DNA of 40,000 bases from Nitrosarchaeum sp. (GTDB lineage: Archaea; Thermoproteota; Nitrososphaeria; Nitrososphaerales; Nitrosopumilaceae), in contig BQXB01000003.1 in the NCBI GenBank assembly GCA_036984365.1, positions 1 to 40,000 on the forward strand, read 5' to 3'. The notes beneath the pieces are model-generated. The model saw only the letters and a program-made list of their open reading frames with translations, had not been told where the DNA came from and did no database searches. Both the position numbers and the translations under genes were made by a program. Below are positions 3,363 through 26,926 of the stretch, piece by piece (position 1 is the first letter of the stretch; every line of letters starts with the position of its first letter).

Positions 3363-5555
3363 ATGGCAAAATTCAAGTCAACGACTGAAGTTATGAAGAT
3401 AATCAAAAACAAAGAACAAATTCGCAACTTTAGTGTAATTGCTCACGTTGATCACGGCAAAACTACTATGAGTGATAGTTTATTGGCAGCATCTGGAATT
3501 ATTGCCCCATCTGCAGCTGGAAAAGCATTGGCAATGGATTTTGATAAAGAAGAACAAGAAAGAGGAATTACAATTTATCAAGCAAACGTAACGTTGCACT
3601 TTACAAAAAACAATAAAGAATATGTCATTAACATGATTGATACCCCTGGTCACGTAGATTTCAGTGGAAGGGTAATTCGCAGTCTTAGAGCAATTGACGG
3701 TGCAACTGTTGTATGTGATGCAGTTGAAGGGATTATGACTCAGACCGAAACTGTGACAAGAATGGCACTAGAAGAAAGAGTAAGGCCTGTTTTGTTTATC
3801 AATAAAGTTGATAGATTGATCAAAGAACTCCGTTTAACTCCCGAAAAAATGCAGGAAACACTTGCAGGTGTAGTGTCTAGCTTTAATCAACTAGTTGACA
3901 CTTATGCTGAACCTGAATACAAAGACAAATGGAAAGTATCGATTCAAGACGGTAGTGTCACATTTGGCTCTGCCAAAGACAAGTGGGCATTTAACATAGA
4001 TACTATGAAAGAAAAAGGAATTACATTCAAAGACGTTATTGATGCTTATAAAAATGAAAAAGTAGAAGACTTGGTAGCAAGAGTTCCCTTGGCTGACGCG
4101 GTACTTGGAATGGTAGTAAAACACGTTCCTCCTCCAAACGTTGCCCAAAAGTATAGAATTCCTCAAATTTGGAAGGGAGACCTTGATTCTGATATAGGAA
4201 AGGCACTCTTGGCATGCAGTGACGATGGACCAACAATTATGATGGTAGTCAATATGGTTTTAGATCCAGCGGCGGGGCCTGTTGCAATTGGTAGATTATT
4301 TTCTGGAACAATAAAGGACGGACAAACAGTTAACATCATTGATGCTAAAAGAGAAGGAAGAGTTCAGTCTGTAAACTTTTTCATGGGTAACCAAAGAGAA
4401 CAAGTTGGCGAATTAGGTGCAGGAAACATTCCTGCATTATTGGGATTAACTGAAGCAAGAGCGGGAAATACAATTGCATCTGTCAAAGGAATTCCAATGT
4501 TTGAAGGAGTCAAATATGTTTCAGAACCTGTCGTTCAAGTTGCAATAGAGCCAAAACATCCTAAAGATTTACCAAAACTTGTAGAGGTTCTCAAGCAATT
4601 GACAATTGAAGATCCTAACCTTGTAGTAAAAATCGACGAAGAATCTGGCGAAACACTCGTAGCTGGAATGGGTGTGTTGCACCTTGATGTAGCTACTCAT
4701 AGAATTCAAGATGCTAAAGTAGAAATTATTACATCTGAACCGCTTATCAATTACAGAGAAACTGTCAAAGGTACATGTGAGCCAGTCATGTCAAAATCTC
4801 CAAACAGACACAACAAGATTTTCATGAAAGTCGAACCATTAGAGCCAGCAATTGCGCACATGCTTAGAACCGGTGAAATCAGCGACATGAAAGACAAAAA
4901 GGTTGTAGCTGATCTTCTCAAAGGCGCTGGATGGGATACTGATACAATTAAGAGAATTATGAAACTAGACCCACGTGGAAACGTAATGATTAACGGAACA
5001 AAGGGTGTTCAGTTTATCCAGGAATCAACTGACTCTATTAACTCTGGATTTGAGGAAGTCATGAAAGAGGGGCCGCTCTGTAAAGAGCAGATGAGGGACT
5101 GTAAATTCATCTTTACTCACTTTGTACCTCATGAGGATACAGCGCACAGAGGCTTGTCTCAACTAGGACCTGCATCAAGGCGTGCCTGCATGGGCGCATT
5201 ACTTACTGCCGGAACTACGATTTTAGAGCCAATGCTTGCAATTGAGGTTAGAGTTCCAACTGATTTGGTAGGAAACGTAGCTACCGTACTTTCTGGTAAA
5301 CGTGGTAAGGTACTTGACATGCAGCAAAAAGGCGCTGCAAGTATTATTGTTGGCGAAATTCCAGCTTCTGAGACGTTTACCCTATCTGAAGCAATGAGAG
5401 GGCAAACAGCTGGACGTGCAACATGGAATACGTCATTTAAGGCATGGACTGAACTCCCAAAGTCTATTGCTGTTACCGCAATTGCGGAAATTAGAAAAAG
5501 AAAAGGTTTGGCACCAGTACCGCCTGGAATCGAAGAATATATCGACAGAGAGTAA
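3363..5555 (+). CDS. fusA: archaeal translation elongation factor 2 (aEF-2), translational GTPase
   Basis: G1 AHVDHGKTT, G3 DTPGHVDF and G4 NKVDR motifs, 730 aa, and an EF-2-type C-terminal half (HRGLSQLGPASRRA, RGQTAG). The last four codons plus the stop lie inside the repeated insertion target. Confidence 0.97.
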   Translation: MAKFKSTTEVMKIIKNKEQIRNFSVIAHVDHGKTTMSDSLLAASGIIAPSAAGKALAMDFDKEEQERGITIYQANVTLHFTKNNKEYVINMIDTPGHVDFSGRVIRSLRAIDGATVVCDAVEGIMTQTETVTRMALEERVRPVLFINKVDRLIKELRLTPEKMQETLAGVVSSFNQLVDTYAEPEYKDKWKVSIQDGSVTFGSAKDKWAFNIDTMKEKGITFKDVIDAYKNEKVEDLVARVPLADAVLGMVVKHVPPPNVAQKYRIPQIWKGDLDSDIGKALLACSDDGPTIMMVVNMVLDPAAGPVAIGRLFSGTIKDGQTVNIIDAKREGRVQSVNFFMGNQREQVGELGAGNIPALLGLTEARAGNTIASVKGIPMFEGVKYVSEPVVQVAIEPKHPKDLPKLVEVLKQLTIEDPNLVVKIDEESGETLVAGMGVLHLDVATHRIQDAKVEIITSEPLINYRETVKGTCEPVMSKSPNRHNKIFMKVEPLEPAIAHMLRTGEISDMKDKKVVADLLKGAGWDTDTIKRIMKLDPRGNVMINGTKGVQFIQESTDSINSGFEEVMKEGPLCKEQMRDCKFIFTHFVPHEDTAHRGLSQLGPASRRACMGALLTAGTTILEPMLAIEVRVPTDLVGNVATVLSGKRGKVLDMQQKGAASIIVGEIPASETFTLSEAMRGQTAGRATWNTSFKAWTELPKSIAVTAIAEIRKRKGLAPVPPGIEEYIDRE

Positions 5556-5558
5556 AAA
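5541..5558. repeat. Target copy a (native aEF-2 3' end): ATCGACAGAGAGTAAAAA
   Basis: The exact 18-mer recurs at 11037..11054 and 21940..21957, and with one mismatch at 26927..26944. It encodes I-D-R-E-stop. The true duplicated target may be only ATCGACAGAGAGT (13 nt) if the A5 belongs to the element termini. Confidence 0.9.
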
Positions 5559-5597
5559 TAGAATCCCCCCTTTGTAGGCACGATTTTGTGCTATGTT
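5559..5597. repeat. Casposon 1 left TIR: TAGAATCCCCCCTTTGTAGGCACGATTTTGTGCTATGTT
   Basis: Exact reverse complement of 10993..11031, checked base by base. Confidence 0.92.
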
Positions 5598-5672: not shown

Positions 5673-5939
5673 ATGGCAAACTTAGGAGTAATTTTGGCAG
5701 GATTGATTTTGTTTGGCATTGCATTCGTTGGATACACTTATCCAATATCCGATAATGGGTATACCATTCCACAATATGATCAACTTTGTGATTCTGGAGT
5801 AGGACAACTAGGACAATTGTTTAACAGGAACACACAACAAGATTGTGGATTAGCAAATACGTTGTTACTTGGAATTTATGGTATTGGATTGATTGGATTG
5901 ATACTTTTCATCGTTGGTCTAGTTGTTCCCAAAAGATGA
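5673..5939 (+). CDS. small membrane protein (88 aa, two hydrophobic segments), overlapping cas1
   Basis: Hydrophobic stretches LGVILAGLILFGIAFVGY and LLLGIYGIGLIGLILFIVGLVV. Its TGA stop overlaps the cas1 ATG (ATGA at 5936..5939). Confidence 0.55.
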   Translation: MANLGVILAGLILFGIAFVGYTYPISDNGYTIPQYDQLCDSGVGQLGQLFNRNTQQDCGLANTLLLGIYGIGLIGLILFIVGLVVPKR

Positions 5940-6961
5940 CATTAAAAGGAAAACAAAACCATTACAACGTAAAATTTCTCAAAGGCTACGGATTTTCAAT
6001 CAAGGTAAAAGATTCCAAGATTGTTCTCACCAATACAGCAGATCCATTCTCAAAACCAGAAAGAGAAGAATGGTACATCGACAACATGCCATATGAAAAA
6101 ATAGTTCTTTGTGGCAAAGGATACATTTCTACTGAGGCACTGAGTTTACTGTCCAATAATAGCAGAAATATTATTTTGCTAGATACATTTGGAAAACCAG
6201 TAACATACCTAAATCCTATAAGAGAATCACAGACAGCCACTTTATACAGAATGATGCAATATGATACATTTCGTGATGAATCAAAAAAAGATTATCTTGT
6301 AAAACAAATCATTTTTGCAAAGAAAAAATCTCAACTACAGTTGCTCCAGAAAATAGGAAGCTCTGTTGACACATTACCTGATGAGGAGGCACATGCAAGT
6401 ATGATCTATTTTTCTGAATATGCAAAATTTATTCCTAAGCGATTTGGATTTAGTTCCAGAAATCAGTCTTTTAGCGGTGCCTCAAAAAGTAATGCCAAAG
6501 ACATCATAAATGCCCTGTTAAACTATGGCTATGCAGTACTAGCAGGTGAAATCTCAAAATTTGTCAACGGTGTAGGATTGGATGCATACTATGGATTTAT
6601 GCACAAGAATCACGGCAATTCCCAATCACTAGTGTATGATTTGATAGAGCCATTTAGGTGGATGGTAGATTATGCAGTGTTTAGTCTTGCCAATAGTGTA
6701 AGCACAAAGCAGAAAATCTACCTCAAAGACTATGCGCATAACAGAGAAGGAGATGTAATTTTGGATTACTCTCTTACCAGACGATTCTTGGAAAGATTGG
6801 AGCGAGTATTTCAAAAAGAGAGACCTTACCGATTAAAGCATGGTAGAAAACGATCTGATGGTCTTTCTATGTGTCAGGAGATTACTATTGTGAAAATAAC
6901 CGTGCAAGATCTTGCAGACTATTGCTGTTACTCCAAGAGTTTTCTTGAAGATAACCGTTAG
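5936..6961 (+). CDS. cas1: Cas1-family casposase (casposon integrase)
   Basis: NALLNYGYAVLAGE...GLDAYYGFMHK...LVYDLIEPFRWMVD is the Cas1 catalytic-core pattern. The start is set at ATG 5936 (MTLKGKQNHYNVKFLKGYG), identical in its first 19 aa to the casposon 2 Cas1. The track's upstream extension from 5843 overlaps the membrane ORF. Confidence 0.92.
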   Translation: MTLKGKQNHYNVKFLKGYGFSIKVKDSKIVLTNTADPFSKPEREEWYIDNMPYEKIVLCGKGYISTEALSLLSNNSRNIILLDTFGKPVTYLNPIRESQTATLYRMMQYDTFRDESKKDYLVKQIIFAKKKSQLQLLQKIGSSVDTLPDEEAHASMIYFSEYAKFIPKRFGFSSRNQSFSGASKSNAKDIINALLNYGYAVLAGEISKFVNGVGLDAYYGFMHKNHGNSQSLVYDLIEPFRWMVDYAVFSLANSVSTKQKIYLKDYAHNREGDVILDYSLTRRFLERLERVFQKERPYRLKHGRKRSDGLSMCQEITIVKITVQDLADYCCYSKSFLEDNR

Positions 6962-7653: not shown

Positions 7654-7857
7654 GTGAAAAACAAAATACCAATCAAGACCCTTGAGTTAGGCACAAGAAA
7701 AATCAGTAACATGAATTTTTCAAAGATTGTTACTCTGCCTAAGCCATTCACCCAAAACTATCTGGATGAGAACATGGAAGTTTCAATGTCCTTGTCTCAT
7801 GACGGGAAATTGACACTAACCCCAGTCAAAAAGTTAGAGGAGGTGAAAAAGAAGTGA
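7654..7857 (+). CDS. AbrB/SpoVT-like small DNA-binding protein, first gene of the polB operon
   Basis: IVTLPKPFTQNYL...EVSMSLSHDGKLTLTPV resembles the swapped-hairpin pattern. The positional counterpart in casposon 2 is 17112..17393. GTG start is uncertain. Confidence 0.4.
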   Translation: MKNKIPIKTLELGTRKISNMNFSKIVTLPKPFTQNYLDENMEVSMSLSHDGKLTLTPVKKLEEVKKK

Positions 7858-8210
7858 TGAAAGAGAAAAGATGGTCACCATTTCTCAGTTGGAGTAGTTA
7901 CAAATCTCAAAATTCCAAAAAGCCCGACGTGTTAGACTTGCAGGTTTCAGAACTAGAGTTGTTTTCTACTGCCTACTCTGTAAATGCAAAGGTCAACCAT
8001 AAAGATTCCGATGGAAGATGGTACGAAAGAATTCTTCCCGTTGGATATCACGAATCAATCAACAAAGATTTGCTAAGGCAATGGGAAGAAGCATTTCACA
8101 ACGGATGGATTAGATTGAACAGCCACATCAGAATCAAGACGTGGCTTGAAACATCAAAGAAGCACAAAGACAGATTGATTAGAAGATACATGCTAATCGT
8201 ATTGGATTAG
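7854..8210 (+). CDS. conserved casposon protein (118 aa)
   Basis: Homolog of 16783..17115 by eye: PFLSWSSYKS versus PFLKWGDYKS, and IRIKTWLETSKK versus LQIKTWLRQSSK. Same operon position. 4-nt overlap with the upstream gene. Confidence 0.6.
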   Translation: MMKEKRWSPFLSWSSYKSQNSKKPDVLDLQVSELELFSTAYSVNAKVNHKDSDGRWYERILPVGYHESINKDLLRQWEEAFHNGWIRLNSHIRIKTWLETSKKHKDRLIRRYMLIVLD

Positions 8211-8243: not shown

Positions 8244-8564
8244 ATGTCCACTGAAGACAAAAGAAGCAAACTGCTAGAGCAACTTGATGCACTAAAGATA
8301 TTCCCAAACAACAAACTAGTAAGACAACTTCGCAATCAACTAAAAACAAAACTGGAAAAACTAGAAACAACATCTGCACCATTTCCAAAAAATCCAAACA
8401 TTTCTAGATCTGGCAAATTAAAGAGATATCATAATTATTTGAGACAAATCAGAAACAACTTTCCAGAATACTCTTACAAGCAAATAAGACAGCAGTTTGC
8501 AAGAAGAAAAAAACAGCAAGACGCTTCAATTCCTGATGCGGTATGGCAGAATCCATCCCCGTAA
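8244..8564 (+). CDS. conserved casposon protein (106 aa) ending ...AVWQNPSP; overlaps the polB start
   Basis: Homolog of 16421..16756, which ends ...VIWQNPSA. N-terminal coiled-coil-like region and basic middle part. 22-nt overlap with polB in both casposons. Confidence 0.6.
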   Translation: MSTEDKRSKLLEQLDALKIFPNNKLVRQLRNQLKTKLEKLETTSAPFPKNPNISRSGKLKRYHNYLRQIRNNFPEYSYKQIRQQFARRKKQQDASIPDAVWQNPSP

Positions 8565-10318
8565 CCAATTACAATACTCTGTCAAAGTTATACACAAAGA
8601 AAAAACAAAACAGAGATCCTGCACAATCAGAACTAAGAGAAATTCATGCGCTGGATACAGAGACATGGAAGGGAGATATCTTTCTAATTGCTGATTCTAG
8701 TGGTCGATATATTGATAAAATTACGCCTGAAAACGTGATGGAATGGCTGTTTTTTAAAAAATACGAGGGTTCTTGGTGCTTTTTTTACAATTTATCATAT
8801 GATGCTGAAGTTATTTTGAAACTGCTTGGAAAAGAACTTGACAGATACAAAAGAACTGGCAAGCTTGAGTTTAAGTTTGGAAAATACAGAATTGTCTACT
8901 ATCCAGAAAAATGCCTCAAGATCACAGCAGGTCACCATTCTGTTATCTTTTATGACATTGCTCAATTTTACCATTCTGGTTTGGTTGATGCATATCAAAA
9001 CAATATTGGAAAACTACCAAAAGAATATCTGGAATTTAAAAAAATTAATGATCAATTCTCACCAACATACTATAGAAGAAATACAAATGCTGTAAGGAAT
9101 TATTGTATTTCAGATTGTAAATACACTAAACAACTGGCACAACACTGGATCAAACTATTTCATGAGGCGTTTTCATTTTATCCTGCAAAGTGGTTGTCCT
9201 CTGGATACTTGGCAGAAAAAGTTTTGATAAACAATAACATAGACATTCCAAAGTTTGATTCCATTCCATATGAGATTCAAGAGATGGCATATCGCAGTTA
9301 TTATGGTGGGAGATTTGAGATTCTAAAACGTGGATTTGTTGGTGAGGCATATCTTTATGACATCAATTCAGCATATCCATATGCAATAACTCAGATTCCA
9401 GATTTATCTGATGGGATATGGATTAAAAGAAAAACAATTCACAAAAACGCAAAAGTTGGATTCTTTAGGATCAGAGCAAAGATTCCAGACTGCAAGTATA
9501 TCCCACCATTTCCATTTAGAACAAAGCATGATATTGTTTTTCCCTCTGGAGAGTTTGAGACATATGTCACACTGCAAGAACTGCTAGTCTGTGAAAAGTC
9601 CTTTTACAAAATTCTTGAAGGATACCAGTTTATCCCAAACTCTGAAATTTATCCATATGCAGATTTTATTTCAAAACTATATCAGAAAAGACTGGAACTA
9701 AAACAGCAAAACAATCCGTTACAGTTGCCAATCAAAATAATTCTGAATTCTATTTATGGCAAGACTGGACAAAGTGTTAATCATAAAATAGGAAACATGT
9801 TCAATCCTGTAATTTTTGCATTTATCACTGGATTTGTGCGTGCCCAACTCTATAGTTTTGTTAAAAAATATGGTTTAGAAAAAGAAGTTGTGTTTTTTGC
9901 AACGGATTCCATATGTACCAGAAAGAAATTAGATATCAATTCTACTGTCTTAGGAGAGTTTTCCTTTGATGGAATGGATGATGATGTCTTTGTGTTGCAG
10001 AATGGTTTCTATCGATTTAATGGAAAATGGAAACAACGTGGATTAGGCAAGTTGGGAACTAGAGAAATAGAACATCTAGACACATTTGAAAAGAATGGGA
10101 GATTGTACTATAGTTTTGTTGTAAACAGAAACAACAGACTACGATCTTCTATTTTACAAAATAAAATTAGCGATATTGGAAAGATAAAACCAGAGACTAG
10201 GGAGTTTAATCTCAATGCAGACAGGAAGAGGTTTTGGTTGGGGAGGATTGAGAGTATGGATGATAAGATAATGAATGAGTCAATACCGATATGTTTTAAT
10301 CATTTTAAAATTAAATGA
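8543..10318 (+). CDS. polB: protein-primed family B DNA polymerase (pPolB)
   Basis: ExoI HALDTET, ExoII YNLSYDAEV, motif A DINSAYPYA, motif B KIILNSIYGKTGQ, motif C FFATDSI. Confidence 0.9.
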   Translation: MAESIPVTNYNTLSKLYTKKKQNRDPAQSELREIHALDTETWKGDIFLIADSSGRYIDKITPENVMEWLFFKKYEGSWCFFYNLSYDAEVILKLLGKELDRYKRTGKLEFKFGKYRIVYYPEKCLKITAGHHSVIFYDIAQFYHSGLVDAYQNNIGKLPKEYLEFKKINDQFSPTYYRRNTNAVRNYCISDCKYTKQLAQHWIKLFHEAFSFYPAKWLSSGYLAEKVLINNNIDIPKFDSIPYEIQEMAYRSYYGGRFEILKRGFVGEAYLYDINSAYPYAITQIPDLSDGIWIKRKTIHKNAKVGFFRIRAKIPDCKYIPPFPFRTKHDIVFPSGEFETYVTLQELLVCEKSFYKILEGYQFIPNSEIYPYADFISKLYQKRLELKQQNNPLQLPIKIILNSIYGKTGQSVNHKIGNMFNPVIFAFITGFVRAQLYSFVKKYGLEKEVVFFATDSICTRKKLDINSTVLGEFSFDGMDDDVFVLQNGFYRFNGKWKQRGLGKLGTREIEHLDTFEKNGRLYYSFVVNRNNRLRSSILQNKISDIGKIKPETREFNLNADRKRFWLGRIESMDDKIMNESIPICFNHFKIK

Positions 10319-11036: not shown

Positions 11037-11054
11037 ATCGACAGAGAGTAAAAA
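11037..11054. repeat. Target copy b: ATCGACAGAGAGTAAAAA, junction of casposon 1 and casposon 2
   Basis: Identical to 5541..5558. Preceded by T5, which is absent from the native aEF-2 sequence. Confidence 0.9.
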
Positions 11055-11094
11055 GGCAGTCCCCCCTCTTTACGCACAAAAACATGCGTCTGAC
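11055..11094. repeat. Casposon 2 left TIR: GGCAGTCCCCCCTCTTTACGCACAAAAACATGCGTCTGAC
   Basis: The reverse complement matches 21895..21934 at 38 of 40 positions. Confidence 0.9.
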
Positions 11095-11234
11095 TAAAAT
11101 TATAACGAAATAGGATTTGTTGGAGAATTGTTATAACGAAAGTATGAATTTGTGAATAGTTGAAAATAAATCCATCATTATGAAGAATATTGAAATATAG
11201 TTAAAAATACTTAGAATAAAAGATTAATTATTAA

Positions 11235-13762: not shown

Positions 13763-14599
13763 TCATTGCAATGTGTATAAATCCGATTTCTGAATTTTAT
13801 TTACTAAATTAGGTTTATTTTTTTTTGTTATAAAATTCACCCTATCTACAAAATCATTTGAAGACAATGGTGCAATATAGATATTTTCTATTAAACTATC
13901 TATATTCAATTTAACAAATTTTCCATCAGGGGTTAATTCATTAGGATTAACAATCCTTGGTTTTGAAGGATTTGTTTTTTCTCTTTCAATGTCTTTTGTG
14001 CCTAATACTTTTTGCAACTTATTATCTTCAGGTAAGGCAGTAATAAGACGTAATTCTGATTCACATTCAAATGAAATTCGTTTTGTTATAAATCGTTGAT
14101 ATGCATTCCATTCATTCATCCATTCTCTAGAATAATCTGAGTAAATCACACGGCCAATCCAAATCGTGTCATCAGTATTGTCATTAAACGATTCTTTTAT
14201 TTTTCTATAAGTTGATTGAATGGCAATTCCCTCCATATTGGATGTGTATAATTTCCACATAGATGCAGATTCATGATCATTGATATGCCAACAATTTACT
14301 AAAAGCTGATTTTTTAGCATCTCGTATGTGATCTCATCCATTTTTGGTTTGTTTTTGATAAATTTATCAAATTGTTTCTTACTAGCAAACCTGTCTTGTA
14401 TTTCAGAGTAAACCTGTTTTGTATTTTTCTTATTGAATTCTGGGACGGTTCCTTCAAAAGGATCTTCAAAAGAAGTAACTTTAGAAAAATGAAGAGACTC
14501 TTTCTCTAATAGACTCTGGAATTTTTGAATATTCATAAAGCGCCAGATTTTACTATCTAGATTGACGGGAGGCTCAAATATTGGATGAGGTTCATGCAT
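13763..14599 (-). CDS. DUF2971-family protein, casposon cargo
   Basis: N-terminal KIWRFMNIQKFQSLLEKESLHFSKVTSFEDPFEG matches the DUF2971 signature (Y/F-x-s-x-x-x-f-x-x-l-L-x-x-x-x-L-x-f-s-x-x-x-x-f-N/E-D-P-F-E). The gene starts 25 nt downstream of the polB stop on the same strand. Confidence 0.6.
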   Translation of the reverse strand: MHEPHPIFEPPVNLDSKIWRFMNIQKFQSLLEKESLHFSKVTSFEDPFEGTVPEFNKKNTKQVYSEIQDRFASKKQFDKFIKNKPKMDEITYEMLKNQLLVNCWHINDHESASMWKLYTSNMEGIAIQSTYRKIKESFNDNTDDTIWIGRVIYSDYSREWMNEWNAYQRFITKRISFECESELRLITALPEDNKLQKVLGTKDIEREKTNPSKPRIVNPNELTPDGKFVKLNIDSLIENIYIAPLSSNDFVDRVNFITKKNKPNLVNKIQKSDLYTLQ

Positions 14600-14624: not shown

Positions 14625-16442
14625 TCAAATTTTTGCAGCATCAAACAAAGGCAATGGAAACGGTGATGAAATGTTGTGTTCTTTTAATCTTACATCGGTC
14701 AACCTTCCATGCCATAATCTTCCTCTGTCTCCATTGATGTTCAGTTGTTTAGAAGATGTGTAAAACGAACCAATATTTTCTAGTGTTCCCTTGTTTAGAT
14801 TCTCCTTTAGTGTCCCGACCCGTAGTTTCTCAAATGTATACTTGATTCGTCCTTTGGAATCAATGATTGTTTCTTTGTGGTTAATTGACTCATCGCCAAT
14901 AGAACCAATACCTCGAGACCTTTCCCATACATCATTTTTAGAATAAAATCCACTTTGTAATGCATAGATAGACCCCTCAAAATCAAATGAAAATTCGCCT
15001 AATTCCTTTGAATCTAAATTTAATTTCTTTTTGGAACATATTGAATCAGTATACATCATGATGATGTCATTTTCAATTCCATGTTTAATGATACAAGAAT
15101 ATAGTTTGGCTCGAGCAATTCCTGTAATTGTAGATACTATTACGGGATTGAAGATATTTCCCATCTTGTTATCAGTTGTCTGCCCAGTTTTTCCATAAAT
15201 TGAGTTTAGGATAATCTTGAATGGTTGTTCTAGTGGATTTCCTGCTCTTTTTAGTGCCTGTCTTTGCTCGTACATCTCTGTGATTGGCTTTTTGTATGGA
15301 AAATAGGGATCTGGATCACAATACTGCCAAGAATCTAAAATCTCATACCATGATGAATCCTCACAAGATTGCAGTTCTGCAAGTGTGACAAATGTGATAA
15401 ACTCACCGACTGGGTAAATCAGTTTTGATCTAATCTTGAAAGGAAATGGCGAGATGTGCTGAGCTAACGGAATCTTTGCCTTTATTTTAAAAAATCCAAT
15501 CACTACATCTTTCTGAATTGTCTTTGACTGAATCCATTTTCCCTTTGTTAGTTCTGGAACTAGAGTTAACGCATAAGGATATGCCGAATTTACATCATAG
15601 ATAAAACATGATTTGTTGTATCCTCTTTGTACTAGTTCAATTCGTCCACCGGCATATGCATTCCAAGCAAGCTCTTGTGCTTGTTCTGGAATTTCATCAA
15701 ACTTTGGCAGAATGACTCCTTTGTTGATCAGAATTTTTTCTGCAAGATACCCTGATGAAATCCAGTGACTTGGATAAAACCCAAATGCCTTGTAAAACAT
15801 ATCAATCCAATGTGTAGCTAGTATGGCTGTAAACTTGCAGTCTGAGATGCAATAGTTTCTGATTAATTTTTTATGTCTCTTGTAGTATGGAATGGTAAAA
15901 TCTTTTCTTAAATTTTTCATCTCCAAATATTCTTGAGGTAATTTGCCAATGTTTTTCTGATATGCCTCAGATAGTTTCTTTTGAAAATAAAACTGCGATA
16001 TGTCAAAAAATGTAACCGAGTGTTTGCCCTTACGAATTGATAGTTTCTTTTCTTCGATATAATGAATTGAATAACCTAATAGTTTACAACGAAATCTTTG
16101 TTTAAAGTGCAGTAATTCTTTATTTGATAGATTCATTAGAATCATTTTCAAAATTATTCTTGCATCATAGTGTAGATTCCAGAAAAAACACCACGATGAT
16201 TCATATCTTTTATGAAATAGAAATCTCAGAGTTTTTTCAAGCGTAGTATCCTCAAGATCAATGAAATTTCCATCATTGTCTGCAAGTAATAGCATCTTTC
16301 CATTTGAGGTAGCCTCTATGTCCAGAGCATATATTTTACGCCTATCAGAGGTTGCTTTACGCCTAAACTGAGGTCTTTTTCGTAAATGTTTTAGCGTTCT
16401 ACATCTACTTGTTGGAATCTCTATGCTGACGGGTTTTGCCAT
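14625..16442 (-). CDS. polB: protein-primed family B DNA polymerase (pPolB)
   Basis: ExoI YALDIEAT, ExoII WNLHYDARI, motif A DVNSAYPYA, motif B KIILNSIYGKTGQ, motif C MYTDSICS. Confidence 0.9.
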   Translation of the reverse strand: MAKPVSIEIPTSRCRTLKHLRKRPQFRRKATSDRRKIYALDIEATSNGKMLLLADNDGNFIDLEDTTLEKTLRFLFHKRYESSWCFFWNLHYDARIILKMILMNLSNKELLHFKQRFRCKLLGYSIHYIEEKKLSIRKGKHSVTFFDISQFYFQKKLSEAYQKNIGKLPQEYLEMKNLRKDFTIPYYKRHKKLIRNYCISDCKFTAILATHWIDMFYKAFGFYPSHWISSGYLAEKILINKGVILPKFDEIPEQAQELAWNAYAGGRIELVQRGYNKSCFIYDVNSAYPYALTLVPELTKGKWIQSKTIQKDVVIGFFKIKAKIPLAQHISPFPFKIRSKLIYPVGEFITFVTLAELQSCEDSSWYEILDSWQYCDPDPYFPYKKPITEMYEQRQALKRAGNPLEQPFKIILNSIYGKTGQTTDNKMGNIFNPVIVSTITGIARAKLYSCIIKHGIENDIIMMYTDSICSKKKLNLDSKELGEFSFDFEGSIYALQSGFYSKNDVWERSRGIGSIGDESINHKETIIDSKGRIKYTFEKLRVGTLKENLNKGTLENIGSFYTSSKQLNINGDRGRLWHGRLTDVRLKEHNISSPFPLPLFDAAKI

Positions 16443-16756
16443 ATTACATCATTAATCTCTACATCCTCACCTCTACGTCTTGCAAAGAACTGTGCAAATA
16501 CTTGTTTTAGAGTATATTTTTCTCGTAGTTCTGGATATGTATCATATGTTAGTTTGACATATCTCCAAACATTTTTCATAAAACTAGAACGCTTTTGATT
16601 TGTATTTACAGTTGGTTTTTGTTTTGGTGGTTTTTGTGTCTCTAGTTTTTGTTTTTCTTTTTTTAATCTCTTACATAATGTAATTGCCTCTCTGAATTGT
16701 AAATTCTTTAGCTCTTCAAGCAAAGAGTTAATCTTATCTAGGTCAATTGACTTCAT
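16421..16756 (-). CDS. conserved casposon protein (111 aa) ending ...VIWQNPSA; overlaps the polB start
   Basis: Counterpart of 8244..8564, with the same 22-nt overlap with polB. Confidence 0.6.
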   Translation of the reverse strand: MKSIDLDKINSLLEELKNLQFREAITLCKRLKKEKQKLETQKPPKQKPTVNTNQKRSSFMKNVWRYVKLTYDTYPELREKYTLKQVFAQFFARRRGEDVEINDVIWQNPSA

Positions 16757-16782: not shown

Positions 16783-17115
16783 TTAGAGGGGTTTCACCTC
16801 AAAATCTCTTAATTCTTTTTCTGGATTTTTGCTGGACTGTCTTAGCCATGTCTTGATTTGCAGTACTGTTCCAGATTGTATTTTTCCAGAATGTAGCAGT
16901 TTGTTGTACTGTCTATACAGTATTTTGTTTGTTGACTTGGCTTTCAATGGAATGTTTACATCCATCATGTCAAGTGTTACCAAGACATTCCAGTCGTATT
17001 GTGTTTCAAATGATTCTGGGTCTACTACTACCACTTGAATTGTGTCAGGACTTTTTGCATCCTTGCTTTTGTAGTCGCCCCACTTCAAAAATGGTGGGAG
17101 AGAGGACTGACTCAA
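16783..17115 (-). CDS. conserved casposon protein (110 aa)
   Basis: Counterpart of 7854..8210 (PFLKWGDYKS, IKTWL). Confidence 0.6.
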   Translation of the reverse strand: MSQSSLPPFLKWGDYKSKDAKSPDTIQVVVVDPESFETQYDWNVLVTLDMMDVNIPLKAKSTNKILYRQYNKLLHSGKIQSGTVLQIKTWLRQSSKNPEKELRDFEVKPL

Positions 17116-17393
17116 TTTTGCTCCTCCTCTTTCTGTGTGTCACAGAATGGGGTTATTCTGATGTATGCGCCATCAGAAGATTTTACAAGTTCCACTCGTG
17201 CTCTAATCTCTGCGTTTTGTGAAACATCACAACCGCAGTTTTTTAGAGCGTCCTTGTCAAGAGTGATTACCCTTGAGTAGTTTTGCCGTGGAACTCGTTT
17301 TTCTCCGAAATCAATTGTTGTTTCGGATTGACTTTTGTTTGATTTTTGATTTGTCATTACATGACTTACGTCATACTGATATACTCGTTTCAC
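17112..17393 (-). CDS. AbrB/SpoVT-like small protein, first gene of the polB operon
   Basis: YSRVITLDKDALKNCG...VELVKSSDGAYIRITPF. Positional counterpart of 7654..7857, with a 4-nt overlap with the next gene. Confidence 0.4.
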   Translation of the reverse strand: MKRVYQYDVSHVMTNQKSNKSQSETTIDFGEKRVPRQNYSRVITLDKDALKNCGCDVSQNAEIRARVELVKSSDGAYIRITPFCDTQKEEEQN

Positions 17394-20019: not shown

Positions 20020-21090
20020 TTAGATGATGAAATTACTTGACTTTCCAAGACAAAATCCAATTAAATTCTGAACTGCAATCTTTGCAATAGTAATTTCTTG
20101 AACATTTTTCAACCCGTCTTTTGTCTTTGCACCATGTCTAAAGAAATATTTTCTATCTTGCTGAAATGTTCTTTCCAATAATTCTAAAAATTTCCTGATC
20201 AAATTATACTCCATAATTATAATGCCATCTCTAGTATGAGTAAATTCATCCAGTCTGATTCTCTGCTTATGGTCTTTGATGTTAGATATCTTGAATACTG
20301 TATAATCAACTAGCCATCTAAACGGCTCCATCATGTCATAGACTAACGGCTGAAATCCAGTGTGCTGTTTATGATAAAACCCATAGTATGCATCAAGCCC
20401 AAATCCGTTGATAAACTTGGAAATCTCTCCACCTAGTACTGCATAGCCATAATTCAGCAAGGCATTGATGATATCAGTTGCCTTGTTTTTTGCCAGTCCT
20501 ATATATGATGGGTTTCTAGATGAAAACTCGTATCTTTCTGGAATTAGTTTTGCAAATGCTCTAAAGTAGATATGAGCTGTCTTTGACTCATTACTGATTG
20601 GGGAATTATTGTTTAGATTAGTTAGATGTGCCTCTAGTTTTTCTATAGCATCTATCACTTCGCTTCGCTCAGTAGTTTTGAGGAATCTGATTTGAGATTC
20701 TAGTTTTGCCTTTACAATTTTTCTCTGAAGATATTGGCATTTCTCTTTATCTCGAAATGTATCGTACTGAGCAATTCTGTTTTTAGTTGCAGTTAGTGAC
20801 TCCATTACTGGATTCAGATAAGTAACAGGTTTTCCATGATGGTCTAGTAAAATGACATTTCGATTATTCTCAGATAACAATGCCAAAGCATCAGTAGAGA
20901 TGTATCCTTTACCTTGCAGAACTATTTTTTCATATGGCATGCTTTTGATGTACCATTCTTCTATAGAACAATCTGAAAAAGGATCATGACAGTCTTTGAG
21001 AATTATTTTTGAATCTTTGACAGAGATAGAGTGACCGTAGCCTTTTAGGAATTTTACGTTGTAATGATTTTGTTTTCCTTTTAGAGTCAT
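20020..21090 (-). CDS. cas1: Cas1-family casposase
   Basis: NALLNYGYAVLGGE...GLDAYYGFYHK...LVYDMMEPFRWLVD. About three-quarters identical to the casposon 1 Cas1 over the first 94 aa by eye (21 differences), with synonymous differences at the DNA level. Confidence 0.92.
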   Translation of the reverse strand: MTLKGKQNHYNVKFLKGYGHSISVKDSKIILKDCHDPFSDCSIEEWYIKSMPYEKIVLQGKGYISTDALALLSENNRNVILLDHHGKPVTYLNPVMESLTATKNRIAQYDTFRDKEKCQYLQRKIVKAKLESQIRFLKTTERSEVIDAIEKLEAHLTNLNNNSPISNESKTAHIYFRAFAKLIPERYEFSSRNPSYIGLAKNKATDIINALLNYGYAVLGGEISKFINGFGLDAYYGFYHKQHTGFQPLVYDMMEPFRWLVDYTVFKISNIKDHKQRIRLDEFTHTRDGIIIMEYNLIRKFLELLERTFQQDRKYFFRHGAKTKDGLKNVQEITIAKIAVQNLIGFCLGKSSNFII

Positions 21091-21829: not shown

Positions 21830-21894
21830 AAAATAATTTTAGAATTTCTAATCTTTAAATAATTTCCAACAAACCAACTCACATCATTACGTTA

Positions 21895-21934
21895 GTCAGA
21901 CGCATGTTTTTGTTCCTAAAGAGGGGGGACTGCC
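21895..21934. repeat. Casposon 2 right TIR
   Basis: GTCAGACGCATGTTTTTGTTCCTAAAGAGGGGGGACTGCC matches the reverse complement of 11055..11094 at 38 of 40 positions. Confidence 0.9.
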
Positions 21935-21939
21935 TTTTT

Positions 21940-21957
21940 ATCGACAGAGAGTAAAAA
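21940..21957. repeat. Target copy c: ATCGACAGAGAGTAAAAA, junction of casposon 2 and element 3
   Basis: Identical to copies a and b. Preceded by T5. Confidence 0.9.
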
Positions 21958-26698: not shown

Positions 26699-26926
26699 TC
26701 TTCTTTTTAACATGAAAAGAATCTTTTTCTTATCGACACTGATAAAAAATGAATTTTTACTAAATATGATGCATTACAGATTTTTGGCTTAGAAGAGAGC
26801 CAAATTAGAATTTGAGCGTACTAATTTTAGTTATGACATAGTATGGACAAACTTACGCACAAAAAGTGGGAATGTACTATCGATTTATTACAAAAATGAT
26901 TTGAAATAGAGGAATATTTCCTTTTT

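What the first reader, a model, noticed from the sequence alone, without database searches (positions are those of the whole stretch)
8244..8564. Conserved 22-nt out-of-frame overlap between a WQNPS-tailed small protein and pPolB in both casposons: a terminal-protein candidate?
In casposon 1 the 106-aa ORF ends ...AVWQNPSP-stop, and the polB ATG is embedded in its GTA-TGG codons (ATGGCAGAATCCATCCCCGTAA). In casposon 2 (16421..16756) the 111-aa homolog ends ...VIWQNPSA-stop, with the same arrangement (ATGGCAAAACCCGTCAGCATAG). The rest of the two proteins has diverged strongly, yet the tail, the overlap length and the -1 frame relationship are preserved. Protein-primed polymerases need a priming (terminal) protein, which is usually encoded immediately upstream of or fused to the polymerase. 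This basic, coiled-coil protein is the positional candidate. The conserved overlap implies tight translational coupling, or possibly a low-frequency -1 fusion product.
Basis: partly seen in the sequence, partly recalled or inferred. Interest (0 to 1): 0.6.

Follow-up and report, generated by a model that had tools for sequence, protein, structure and literature searches.

The report
Likely primer protein of archaeal casposons
The small gene overlapping this self-copying transposon's DNA polymerase is probably the protein that starts DNA copying; that guess dates from 2014, but the comparison here adds a predicted complex with the polymerase and points to one near-invariant serine at the protein's end as the likely starting point, which one mutation could test.

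Summary
Observation confirmed. Two tandem family-1 casposons at the aEF-2 3' end each carry a basic, all-helical 106/111-aa gene overlapping pPolB by 22 nt (-1 frame). The terminal-protein (TP) idea is not new: Krupovic 2014 proposed it, and this scan noted it before in other genomes.

The overlap is real but not universal: 97 of 118 junctions keep the 22-nt spacing (94 with ATG), 19 use a plain ATGA overlap, and ATGA occurs in two separate clades. Frameshift fusion is unsupported: stops close the polymerase frame and no slippery site is conserved.

What is conserved is the peptide tail. It persists where it overlaps nothing, and Ser105 is the most conserved residue (228/229, in both TCN and AGY codons).

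A predicted complex with pPolB scores 0.68 (best control 0.01) and touches TPR1; the tail was not placed. The gene upstream models as an OB-fold SSB, giving SSB-TP-Pol order. Polymerase-adjacent genes of His1, His2, an NSV-like virus and a distant casposon also end in Ser, without detectable homology.

Best reading: minimal TP (~0.7), priming through the C-terminal Ser (~0.4). No priming activity was shown.

The parts
8244..8564 (+). Small basic all-helical protein (106 aa, pI 10.5), putative terminal/priming protein of casposon 1
8556..8558 (+). Codon of Ser105, the most conserved residue of the family (228/229) and candidate priming residue
8543..8564 (+). 22-nt overlap: polB start codon inside the Val-Trp codons of the small gene
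8534..8536 (+). TGA in the polB frame three codons before its ATG; closes the frame against a -1 fusion from further upstream
8543..10318 (+). Protein-primed-type PolB of casposon 1 (591 aa); TPR1 present, TPR2 short, motif C without its first Asp
   Evidence: PF03175 E 8e-29
7854..8210 (+). OB-fold protein, putative ssDNA-binding protein (best fold match PRD1 P12)
   Evidence: (Z 6.0, 101 aligned, rmsd 3.7)
7654..7857 (+). AbrB/MazE-like small gene, first gene of the replication block
   Evidence: weak PF04014 hit, E 0.034
5936..6961 (+). Cas1 casposase of casposon 1
   Evidence: PF01867 E 1e-44
5553..5597 (.). Left terminal inverted repeat of casposon 1; supplies the aEF-2 stop codon
10993..11037 (.). 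Right terminal inverted repeat of casposon 1 (45 nt, 100% complementary)
16421..16756 (-). Homologous small protein of casposon 2 (111 aa, pI 9.8); Ser110 codon at 16427-16429
14625..16442 (-). pPolB of casposon 2 (605 aa); same 22-nt overlap, polB frame closed by TAA TGA just upstream
   Evidence: PF03175 E 5e-20
16783..17115 (-). SSB-like homolog in casposon 2 (32% identical to 7854-8210)
17112..17393 (-). Small gene in the position of the AbrB-like gene in casposon 2 (resemblance by eye only; no Pfam hit)
20020..21090 (-). Cas1 casposase of casposon 2
   Evidence: PF01867 E 8e-50
11049..11133 (.). Left terminal inverted repeat of casposon 2 (partner 21856-21940, 80% complementary)
21856..21940 (.). 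Right terminal inverted repeat of casposon 2

Best explanation
The small gene encodes the terminal (primer) protein of family-1 casposons, a minimal ~105-125-aa protein with no detectable sequence likeness to phi29, PRD1 or Bam35 TPs. Proposed mechanism: it is made from the same operon as pPolB as a separate polypeptide (shown: genomic arrangement and selected start codon; inferred: co-translation). Its helices 3-4 (residues 61-91) dock on the polymerase's TPR1 region and C-terminal segment (predicted). Its basic N-terminal hairpin binds DNA at the inverted-repeat ends of the excised element (inferred from charge and analogy). Its short non-basic tail reaches the active site, where the hydroxyl of Ser105 accepts the first nucleotide (inferred from conservation only; ~0.4 overall). 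The OB-fold protein upstream would coat displaced single strands. The overlap is ordinary operon packing whose length can change (22 or 4 nt); it makes no fusion protein.
For: (1) Linkage: every junction found from the small gene leads into pPolB; all 23 pPolB loci with an intact 5' end found from the polymerase have the gene directly upstream; the SSB-like gene was not found in group-B casposons, so only this gene always accompanies pPolB. (2) Complex: ipSAE 0.68, best of 3 controls 0.01; that mark was reached by 58/80 solved complexes and 2/110 mismatched pairs (counts only rough here: own alignments, ligands present); runs agree in at least 39% of contacts; partner pLDDT at least 66. Contacts at polymerase 316-319 align 3-7 residues from phi29 Glu291, a TPR1 residue proposed to salt-bridge TP (weak alignment, prob 5.8%, but motifs A, B and C in register). 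No PDB sequence matches this pPolB profile at E 0.01. (3) Tail selected as peptide: variation in the overlap sits at third positions of the small gene and changes polB residues; the tail persists in 19 junctions where it overlaps nothing. (4) Ser105 in 228/229 sequences, encoded by TCN in 92 and AGY in 26 of 118 junctions. (5) SSB-TP-Pol order as in phi29 and Bam35, whose TP gene overlaps its polymerase by 17 nt. (6) Genes directly upstream of related pPolBs also end in Ser: His1 ORF11 (DIWQKYGSP), His2 ORF15, L154 (YNSPE), L155, distant casposon L205 (RGSP); background for SP in the last 3 residues is 0.46%.
Against: No priming activity or covalent DNA-protein link is shown for any casposon in the papers I could read. 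No sequence or fold match to a proven TP. The complex did not place residues 92-106 with confidence, so Ser105 at the active site is not modelled. Neighbouring genes can pass this test without binding (7 of 44 in the tool's own check), and the phi29 TP-polymerase structure could bias it. The polymerase is atypical: TPR2 about 20 residues shorter than phi29's and first motif-C Asp missing. Ser56 (90%) and Tyr65 (95%) are alternative hydroxyls. The viral C-terminal Ser pattern was noticed after the fact, has exceptions (ABV ORF163, LCBv1, MetSV, Toil, MuffinTheCat) and shows no homology (hhalign 0.3-12%).
Confidence: 0.68

Rival explanations
1. It is a non-priming partner of the polymerase: a processivity or origin-loading subunit, perhaps making up for the short TPR2. 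Priming then comes from the host or from pPolB itself, as in primer-independent piPolB.
For: Explains linkage, basic charge and the predicted complex equally well. TPR2 is short and motif C atypical. The tail was not placed in the active site.
Against: Does not explain why one terminal hydroxyl residue is better conserved than any predicted interface residue and survives a TCN/AGY switch. The polymerase groups with His1/His2 enzymes (PMC4046053), and His2 DNA carries terminal proteins (PMC7221443). No other TP candidate is always present.
Confidence: 0.22
2. It is a TIR-binding factor for excision or integration with Cas1 (or a regulator); it lies next to polB only through operon packing.
For: Strongly basic, helical; present in all family-1 casposons examined.
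Against: Always coupled to polB, never to cas1, which moves around the element. Predicted to bind pPolB. Family-2 casposons have a different conserved gene set (PMC4046053). A Cas1 complex was not modelled.
Confidence: 0.07
3. A programmed -1 frameshift in the overlap makes a TP-pPolB fusion, like the fused TP-pPolB of polintons and linear plasmids.
For: The relation is -1 in all 118 junctions. Casposon 2 has a formal A AAC CCG heptamer.
Against: The polB frame opens only 28 nt before the stop in 67/99 group-A junctions and 7-13 nt before it in 10/19 group-B junctions. Heptamers occur in 7/99 and 1/19 and are non-canonical; casposon 1 has none. polB has its own selected ATG. A shift at that heptamer would bypass the invariant Ser. 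22 and 4 nt are the same frame, so start drift explains the constant -1. No longer homolog was found (weak evidence).
Confidence: 0.03

Closest known systems
Family-1 casposons of Thaumarchaeota (NitAR1-C1, NitSJ-C1, NitNF5-C1/C2; PMC4046053, PMC6563490)
   Same: Cas1 + pPolB + TIRs + target duplication at the aEF-2 3' end, tandem insertion, 3-4 small conserved genes upstream of polB. [quoted passage not shown] Homologs occur in N. sp. SJ and N. sediminis.
   Different: The passages I read do not describe the overlap classes, the invariant C-terminal Ser, the SSB-like fold of the upstream gene or a modelled complex. The paper's figure could not be viewed, so that it means this very gene is inferred from position.
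phi29 terminal protein gp3 with DNA polymerase gp2 (PMC3351185)
   Same: Gene directly upstream of pPolB with SSB further upstream. TP binds TPR1 and thumb and primes with a Ser. Predicted contacts here fall in the TPR1 stretch.
   Different: 266 vs 106 aa; no sequence similarity; Ser232 lies in an internal loop, not at the penultimate position; casposon TPR2 is much shorter.
Tectivirus TPs: PRD1 P8 and Bam35 ORF4
   Same: TP gene abuts (PRD1, 3-nt gap) or overlaps (Bam35, 17 nt) the polymerase gene; Bam35 order is HTH-SSB-x-TP-Pol. The casposon SSB-like protein's best fold match is PRD1 P12.
   Different: 245-259 aa; prime with an internal Tyr (own knowledge and reference titles); no similarity.
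Haloviruses His1 (ORF11) and His2 (ORF15); NSV-like contig L154
   Same: Closest viral pPolBs. Small gene directly upstream (105, 153 and 121 aa) ending in Ser-x or Ser-Pro-x. His2 DNA has terminal proteins.
   Different: No overlap with polB; His proteins are acidic; homology not detectable. I found no paper that identifies these ORFs as the TP.

Membership tests
Family-1 casposon | Cas1 casposase gene inside the element | tested here: met
   PF01867 in both elements
Family-1 casposon | Protein-primed-type PolB | tested here: met
   PF03175; best phage hits His1/His2/ABV
Family-1 casposon | TIRs and target-site duplication, at the aEF-2 3' end | tested here: met
   TIRs 5553-5597/10993-11037 and 11049-11133/21856-21940; duplicated target at 5540, 11036 and 21939
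Family-1 casposon | 3-4 small conserved genes directly upstream of polB | tested here: met
Terminal proteins of protein-primed replication (functional class) | Becomes covalently linked to the first nucleotide / 5' DNA end | not testable with these tools
   needs an in vitro initiation assay
Terminal proteins of protein-primed replication (functional class) | Forms a heterodimer with its cognate pPolB, touching TPR1 | tested here: inconclusive
   prediction only: 0.68 vs control 0.01, contacts at 316-319 in the TPR1 stretch; binding not measured
Terminal proteins of protein-primed replication (functional class) | Conserved Ser/Thr/Tyr to prime | tested here: met
   Ser105 in 228/229; its role and position in the active site are not shown
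Terminal proteins of protein-primed replication (functional class) | Encoded directly upstream of, or fused to, pPolB | tested here: met
   23/23 polymerase-first loci
phi29-type or PRD1/Bam35-type TP protein families | Sequence homology | tested here: not met
   hhalign probability 0.8, 0.1 and 0.2% against single sequences; no Pfam hit, no convincing PHROG hit
phi29-type or PRD1/Bam35-type TP protein families | Shared fold | tested here: inconclusive
   only generic helical-hairpin matches, Z up to 6.4 over residues 1-48; no viral or atlas match
Programmed -1 ribosomal frameshift | Conserved X XXY YYZ heptamer in a stretch open in both frames | tested here: not met
   7/99 and 1/19, non-canonical, none in casposon 1
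Termination-reinitiation coupling | Overlap or gap within about -8 to +10 nt | tested here: inconclusive
   met by the ATGA class (16/19 also have a 4-5-nt SD match); the 22-nt class of this window is outside the range and has no SD
OB-fold SSB (upstream gene 7854-8210) | OB fold like phage SSBs | tested here: inconclusive
   confident model (pLDDT 92.6); top match PRD1 P12, Z 6.0, 101 aligned, rmsd 3.7, list dominated by SSBs, but Z is under 8

The most novel reading that the evidence does not exclude
Family-1 casposons use a previously undescribed minimal terminal protein that primes through a serine at its extreme C-terminus, and the same design is used by the polymerase-adjacent small proteins of archaeal viruses with related pPolBs (His1 ORF11, His2 ORF15, the NSV-like virus, perhaps ABV ORF243). 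That would identify, with their priming residue, terminal proteins that I could not find identified in the literature held.
Probability: 0.3. Interest if true: 0.72.

Novelty: new variant of a known kind. Interest (0 to 1): 0.5.

Why it matters
Casposons are the proposed ancestors of CRISPR adaptation. Their Cas1 integrase has been studied, but their self-replication has, in the papers I could read, never been reconstituted, and the terminal protein has stayed a positional guess since 2014. The evidence here narrows it to a three-protein module (SSB, small TP, pPolB) and one residue (Ser105), so a two-protein labelling assay with one mutant can decide it. A 106-aa primer protein would be well under half the size of the phi29, PRD1 and Bam35 TPs.

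Tried and rejected
Frameshift fusion rejected. Universality of the 22-nt overlap rejected. 'Tail conserved because of the overlap or the polB N-terminus' rejected. The upstream 118-aa protein as TP rejected: OB-like model, and not found in group-B casposons.

Pfam, PHROGs and atlas searches gave no family for the small protein. Fold searches gave only generic hairpins; this absence does not show a new fold. No homolog of the small protein was found in IMG/VR. PMC5665730 and PMC6681747 were not held. No paper naming the His1/His2 TP gene was found. The polymerase tree is a quick tree with long viral branches; I use it only for the well-supported casposon clades.

Full report
1. Observation. The coordinates, tails, 22-nt overlaps and -1 frame are exactly as reported. 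The two small proteins are ordinary homologs over their whole length (35-38% identity), both strongly basic (pI 10.5 and 9.8). They lie in two tandem elements inserted at the 3' end of aEF-2, each with Cas1, a pPolB-type polymerase, terminal inverted repeats and a duplicated target. These are family-1 casposons as defined in PMC4046053 and PMC6563490.

2. Prior knowledge. [quoted passage not shown] The 2019 survey still lists the 3-4 upstream genes as uncharacterised. Earlier notes of this scan saw the same thing in other genomes.

3. How general is the arrangement? I found 234 near homologs, 28 distant representatives and about 120 loci. All scored junctions lead directly into pPolB in the -1 frame. 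Among 118 non-redundant junctions there are two classes. Class A (99): the start lies in the codon before Trp. It is ATG in 95, TTG in 3 and ATA in 1; the overlap is 22 nt in 97, 25 in one and 19 in one. The Val codon there is GTA in 56/57 and the Ile codon ATA in 39/40, against 46% and 23% elsewhere in the gene, so the embedded ATG is under selection. Class B (19): the gene ends CCA TGA in all, giving the common ATGA overlap; in 10 of 19 the polB frame has a stop between -22 and -4, so the upstream position cannot be the start. Class-B elements are true casposons (cas1 in 11 of 12 large loci, TIRs or aEF-2 sites in several). A polymerase-first search of 401 genomes gave 23 loci with an intact polB 5' end (one is this window's); all 23 have the small gene directly upstream. 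On the polymerase tree, ATGA junctions fall in two separate supported clades, one nested among 22-nt elements. The overlap length is therefore labile. Kin are not independent, so these counts show pattern, not significance.

4. No fusion. In both window copies the polB frame is closed three codons before the ATG. It is open for only 28 nt before the stop in 67/99 class-A junctions. Formal slippery heptamers occur in 7/99 and 1/19, are non-canonical and absent from casposon 1. A search for longer homologs found none (weak evidence). Since 22 and 4 differ by 18 nt, a start moving within one frame accounts for the constant -1 relation. Tight coupling is plausible for ATGA: the Trp-Arg codons of class B spell an SD-like GGAG(G), with 16/19 showing a 4-5-nt match. 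It is not established for -22, which lies outside the -8 to +10 range taken as predictive of termination-reinitiation (PMC10666635) and has no SD match.

5. What is conserved is the peptide. In the class-A overlap, first and second codon positions of the small gene are nearly fixed and third positions vary, changing the polB N-terminus freely. In class B the same W-x-N-P-S-P tail is kept although it overlaps nothing. Across 229 distinct sequences Ser105 is the most conserved column (228), ahead of Asn103 (227) and Trp101 (226). Pro104 and Pro106 tolerate change; Ser56 is 90% and Tyr65 95%. Ser105 is TCN in 92 junctions and AGY in 26; the switch needs two base changes, which points to selection for serine itself. 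The tail (92-106) has no basic residue, while the rest of the protein has 23.

6. Structure. The AlphaFold2 model is all-helical: an N-terminal hairpin (3-41), a linker, helices 51-72 and 78-89, a short helix 98-102 and a free NPSP end (pLDDT 91, pTM 0.54). It has no informative fold match. The complex with pPolB (Mg and ATP riding along) scored 0.68 against a best control of 0.01. That mark was reached by 58 of 80 solved complexes and 2 of 110 mismatched pairs, counts that hold only roughly for this job; runs agree in at least 39% of contacts and partner pLDDT is at least 66. Confident contacts join residues 61-91 to polymerase 316-319, 447 and 561-588. In a weak but motif-registered alignment to phi29 polymerase, 316-319 lie 3-7 residues from Glu291 of TPR1, proposed to bind TP Arg158 (PMC3351185). 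The tail was not placed with confidence, so Ser105 at the active site is not shown. A pass could reflect likeness to the solved phi29 complex, although no PDB sequence matches this polymerase profile. The same alignment shows a TPR2 about 20 residues shorter than phi29's, and motif C lacks its first Asp.

7. Neighbours. The 118-aa gene upstream models confidently as a beta-barrel whose best match among 48,161 chains is the PRD1 SSB P12 (Z 6.0, 101 residues, rmsd 3.7), followed by T4-type gp32 and many SSBs; the atlas gave a phi29 SSB lead. Z is modest, so SSB is likely, not certain. The order AbrB-like, SSB, small protein, pPolB parallels phi29 (6-5-4-3-2) and Bam35 (HTH-SSB-x-TP-Pol, with a 17-nt TP/Pol overlap). 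The SSB-like gene was not found in class-B elements, leaving the small protein as the only constant partner of pPolB.

8. Wider pattern (a lead, noticed after the fact). Genes directly upstream of the closest outside pPolBs end in Ser: His1 ORF11 (DIWQKYGSP; four of five homologs alike, one ends in ES), His2 ORF15 (LRSS), the 27.5-kb NSV-like contig L154 (YNSPE; identity inferred from size and polymerase), viral contig L155 (VGS) and a distant casposon, L205 (RGSP, ATGA overlap). Counting exceptions (ABV ORF163, which has a weak Cas4 hit, LCBv1, MetSV, Toil, MuffinTheCat), 5 of 10 have Ser in the last three residues (background 23%, p 0.06) and 3 of 10 have SP there (background 0.46%, p 1e-5). 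Homology is not detectable, so this may be a shared design, remote descent or partly chance.

9. Mechanism and odds. Shown: gene order, separate selected start, tail selection, Ser invariance. Predicted: binding to pPolB at TPR1 and the C-terminal segment; SSB fold of the neighbour. Inferred: DNA-end binding and priming by Ser105. I put terminal protein at 0.68, non-priming polymerase partner at 0.22, Cas1/TIR factor at 0.07 and fusion at 0.03. Given TP, Ser105 as the priming residue is about 0.6.

10. Verdict. A real and general feature of a known element, whose role was guessed in 2014. It works like a terminal protein on present evidence but is not a member of any known TP sequence family. 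The overlap is ordinary. The value lies in the named residue and the three-protein module, which make the open question cheap to test. Interest 0.5.

Noticed in passing
window:21952-21980: After casposon 2 and the third target copy, a sequence matching the start of casposon 1's left TIR begins again: probably the end of a third, decayed element. Weaker target-like copies lie at 26727 and 26922.
   Followed up: no
window:8543-10318 and 14625-16442: Both polymerases lack the first Asp of motif C (ATDS, YTDS) and have a short TPR2. ABV, L155 and L205 also lack that Asp; LCBv1, MetSV and an autolykivirus keep DTDS.
   Followed up: partly
G000 C3:53900-54400, C3:73219-73649, C3:76716-77756, C3:154190-154834, C2:163407-164162: Further polB and cas1 fragments in the same genome, none with the small gene: relics of other casposons.
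   Followed up: no
window:12561-13598(-) and 13763-14599(-): Casposon 2 cargo: a TIR-domain protein (PF13676, E 1e-9) and a protein with a weak DUF2971 hit; possible anti-virus genes.
   Followed up: no
L205 / L240:2764-6054 (G990:C71): Distant archaeal casposon with a divergent 688-aa pPolB, convergent cas1 and an unrelated 121-aa basic upstream gene ending in Ser-Pro; no relative in 97 genomes of that family.
   Followed up: partly
L138:4329-5060, L234:3862-4593, L235:3648-4424: In Acidianus bottle-shaped viruses the gene upstream of pPolB looks Cas4-like, while the gene downstream (ORF243) ends in a conserved acidic tail with a last or penultimate Ser: an alternative TP candidate.
   Followed up: partly
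L164, L166, L168, L169, L171, L177:1306-1701: Actinobacterial tectivirus-like genomes (e.g. WheeHeim gp12, between SSB and pPolB) have unannotated genes ending N-(P/L)-(F/L)-W-Y-(H/S): possible short TPs with a near-terminal Tyr.
   Followed up: no
class-B loci L115-L134: The Gln-to-Arg change in the tail creates an SD-like GGAG(G) 11-12 nt before the ATGA start, suggesting that this tail position was co-opted for translation.
   Followed up: partly
L113/L183 (G674), L200 (G813), L117, L120: Copies with a broken small gene or polB, some at A tracts: decay or assembly errors.
   Followed up: no
window:5553-5560 and 11049-11056: Element ends begin with (T)AAAAA; a terminal run is what sliding-back initiation needs, but the exact end cannot be fixed because the TA is shared with the target duplication.
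   Followed up: no
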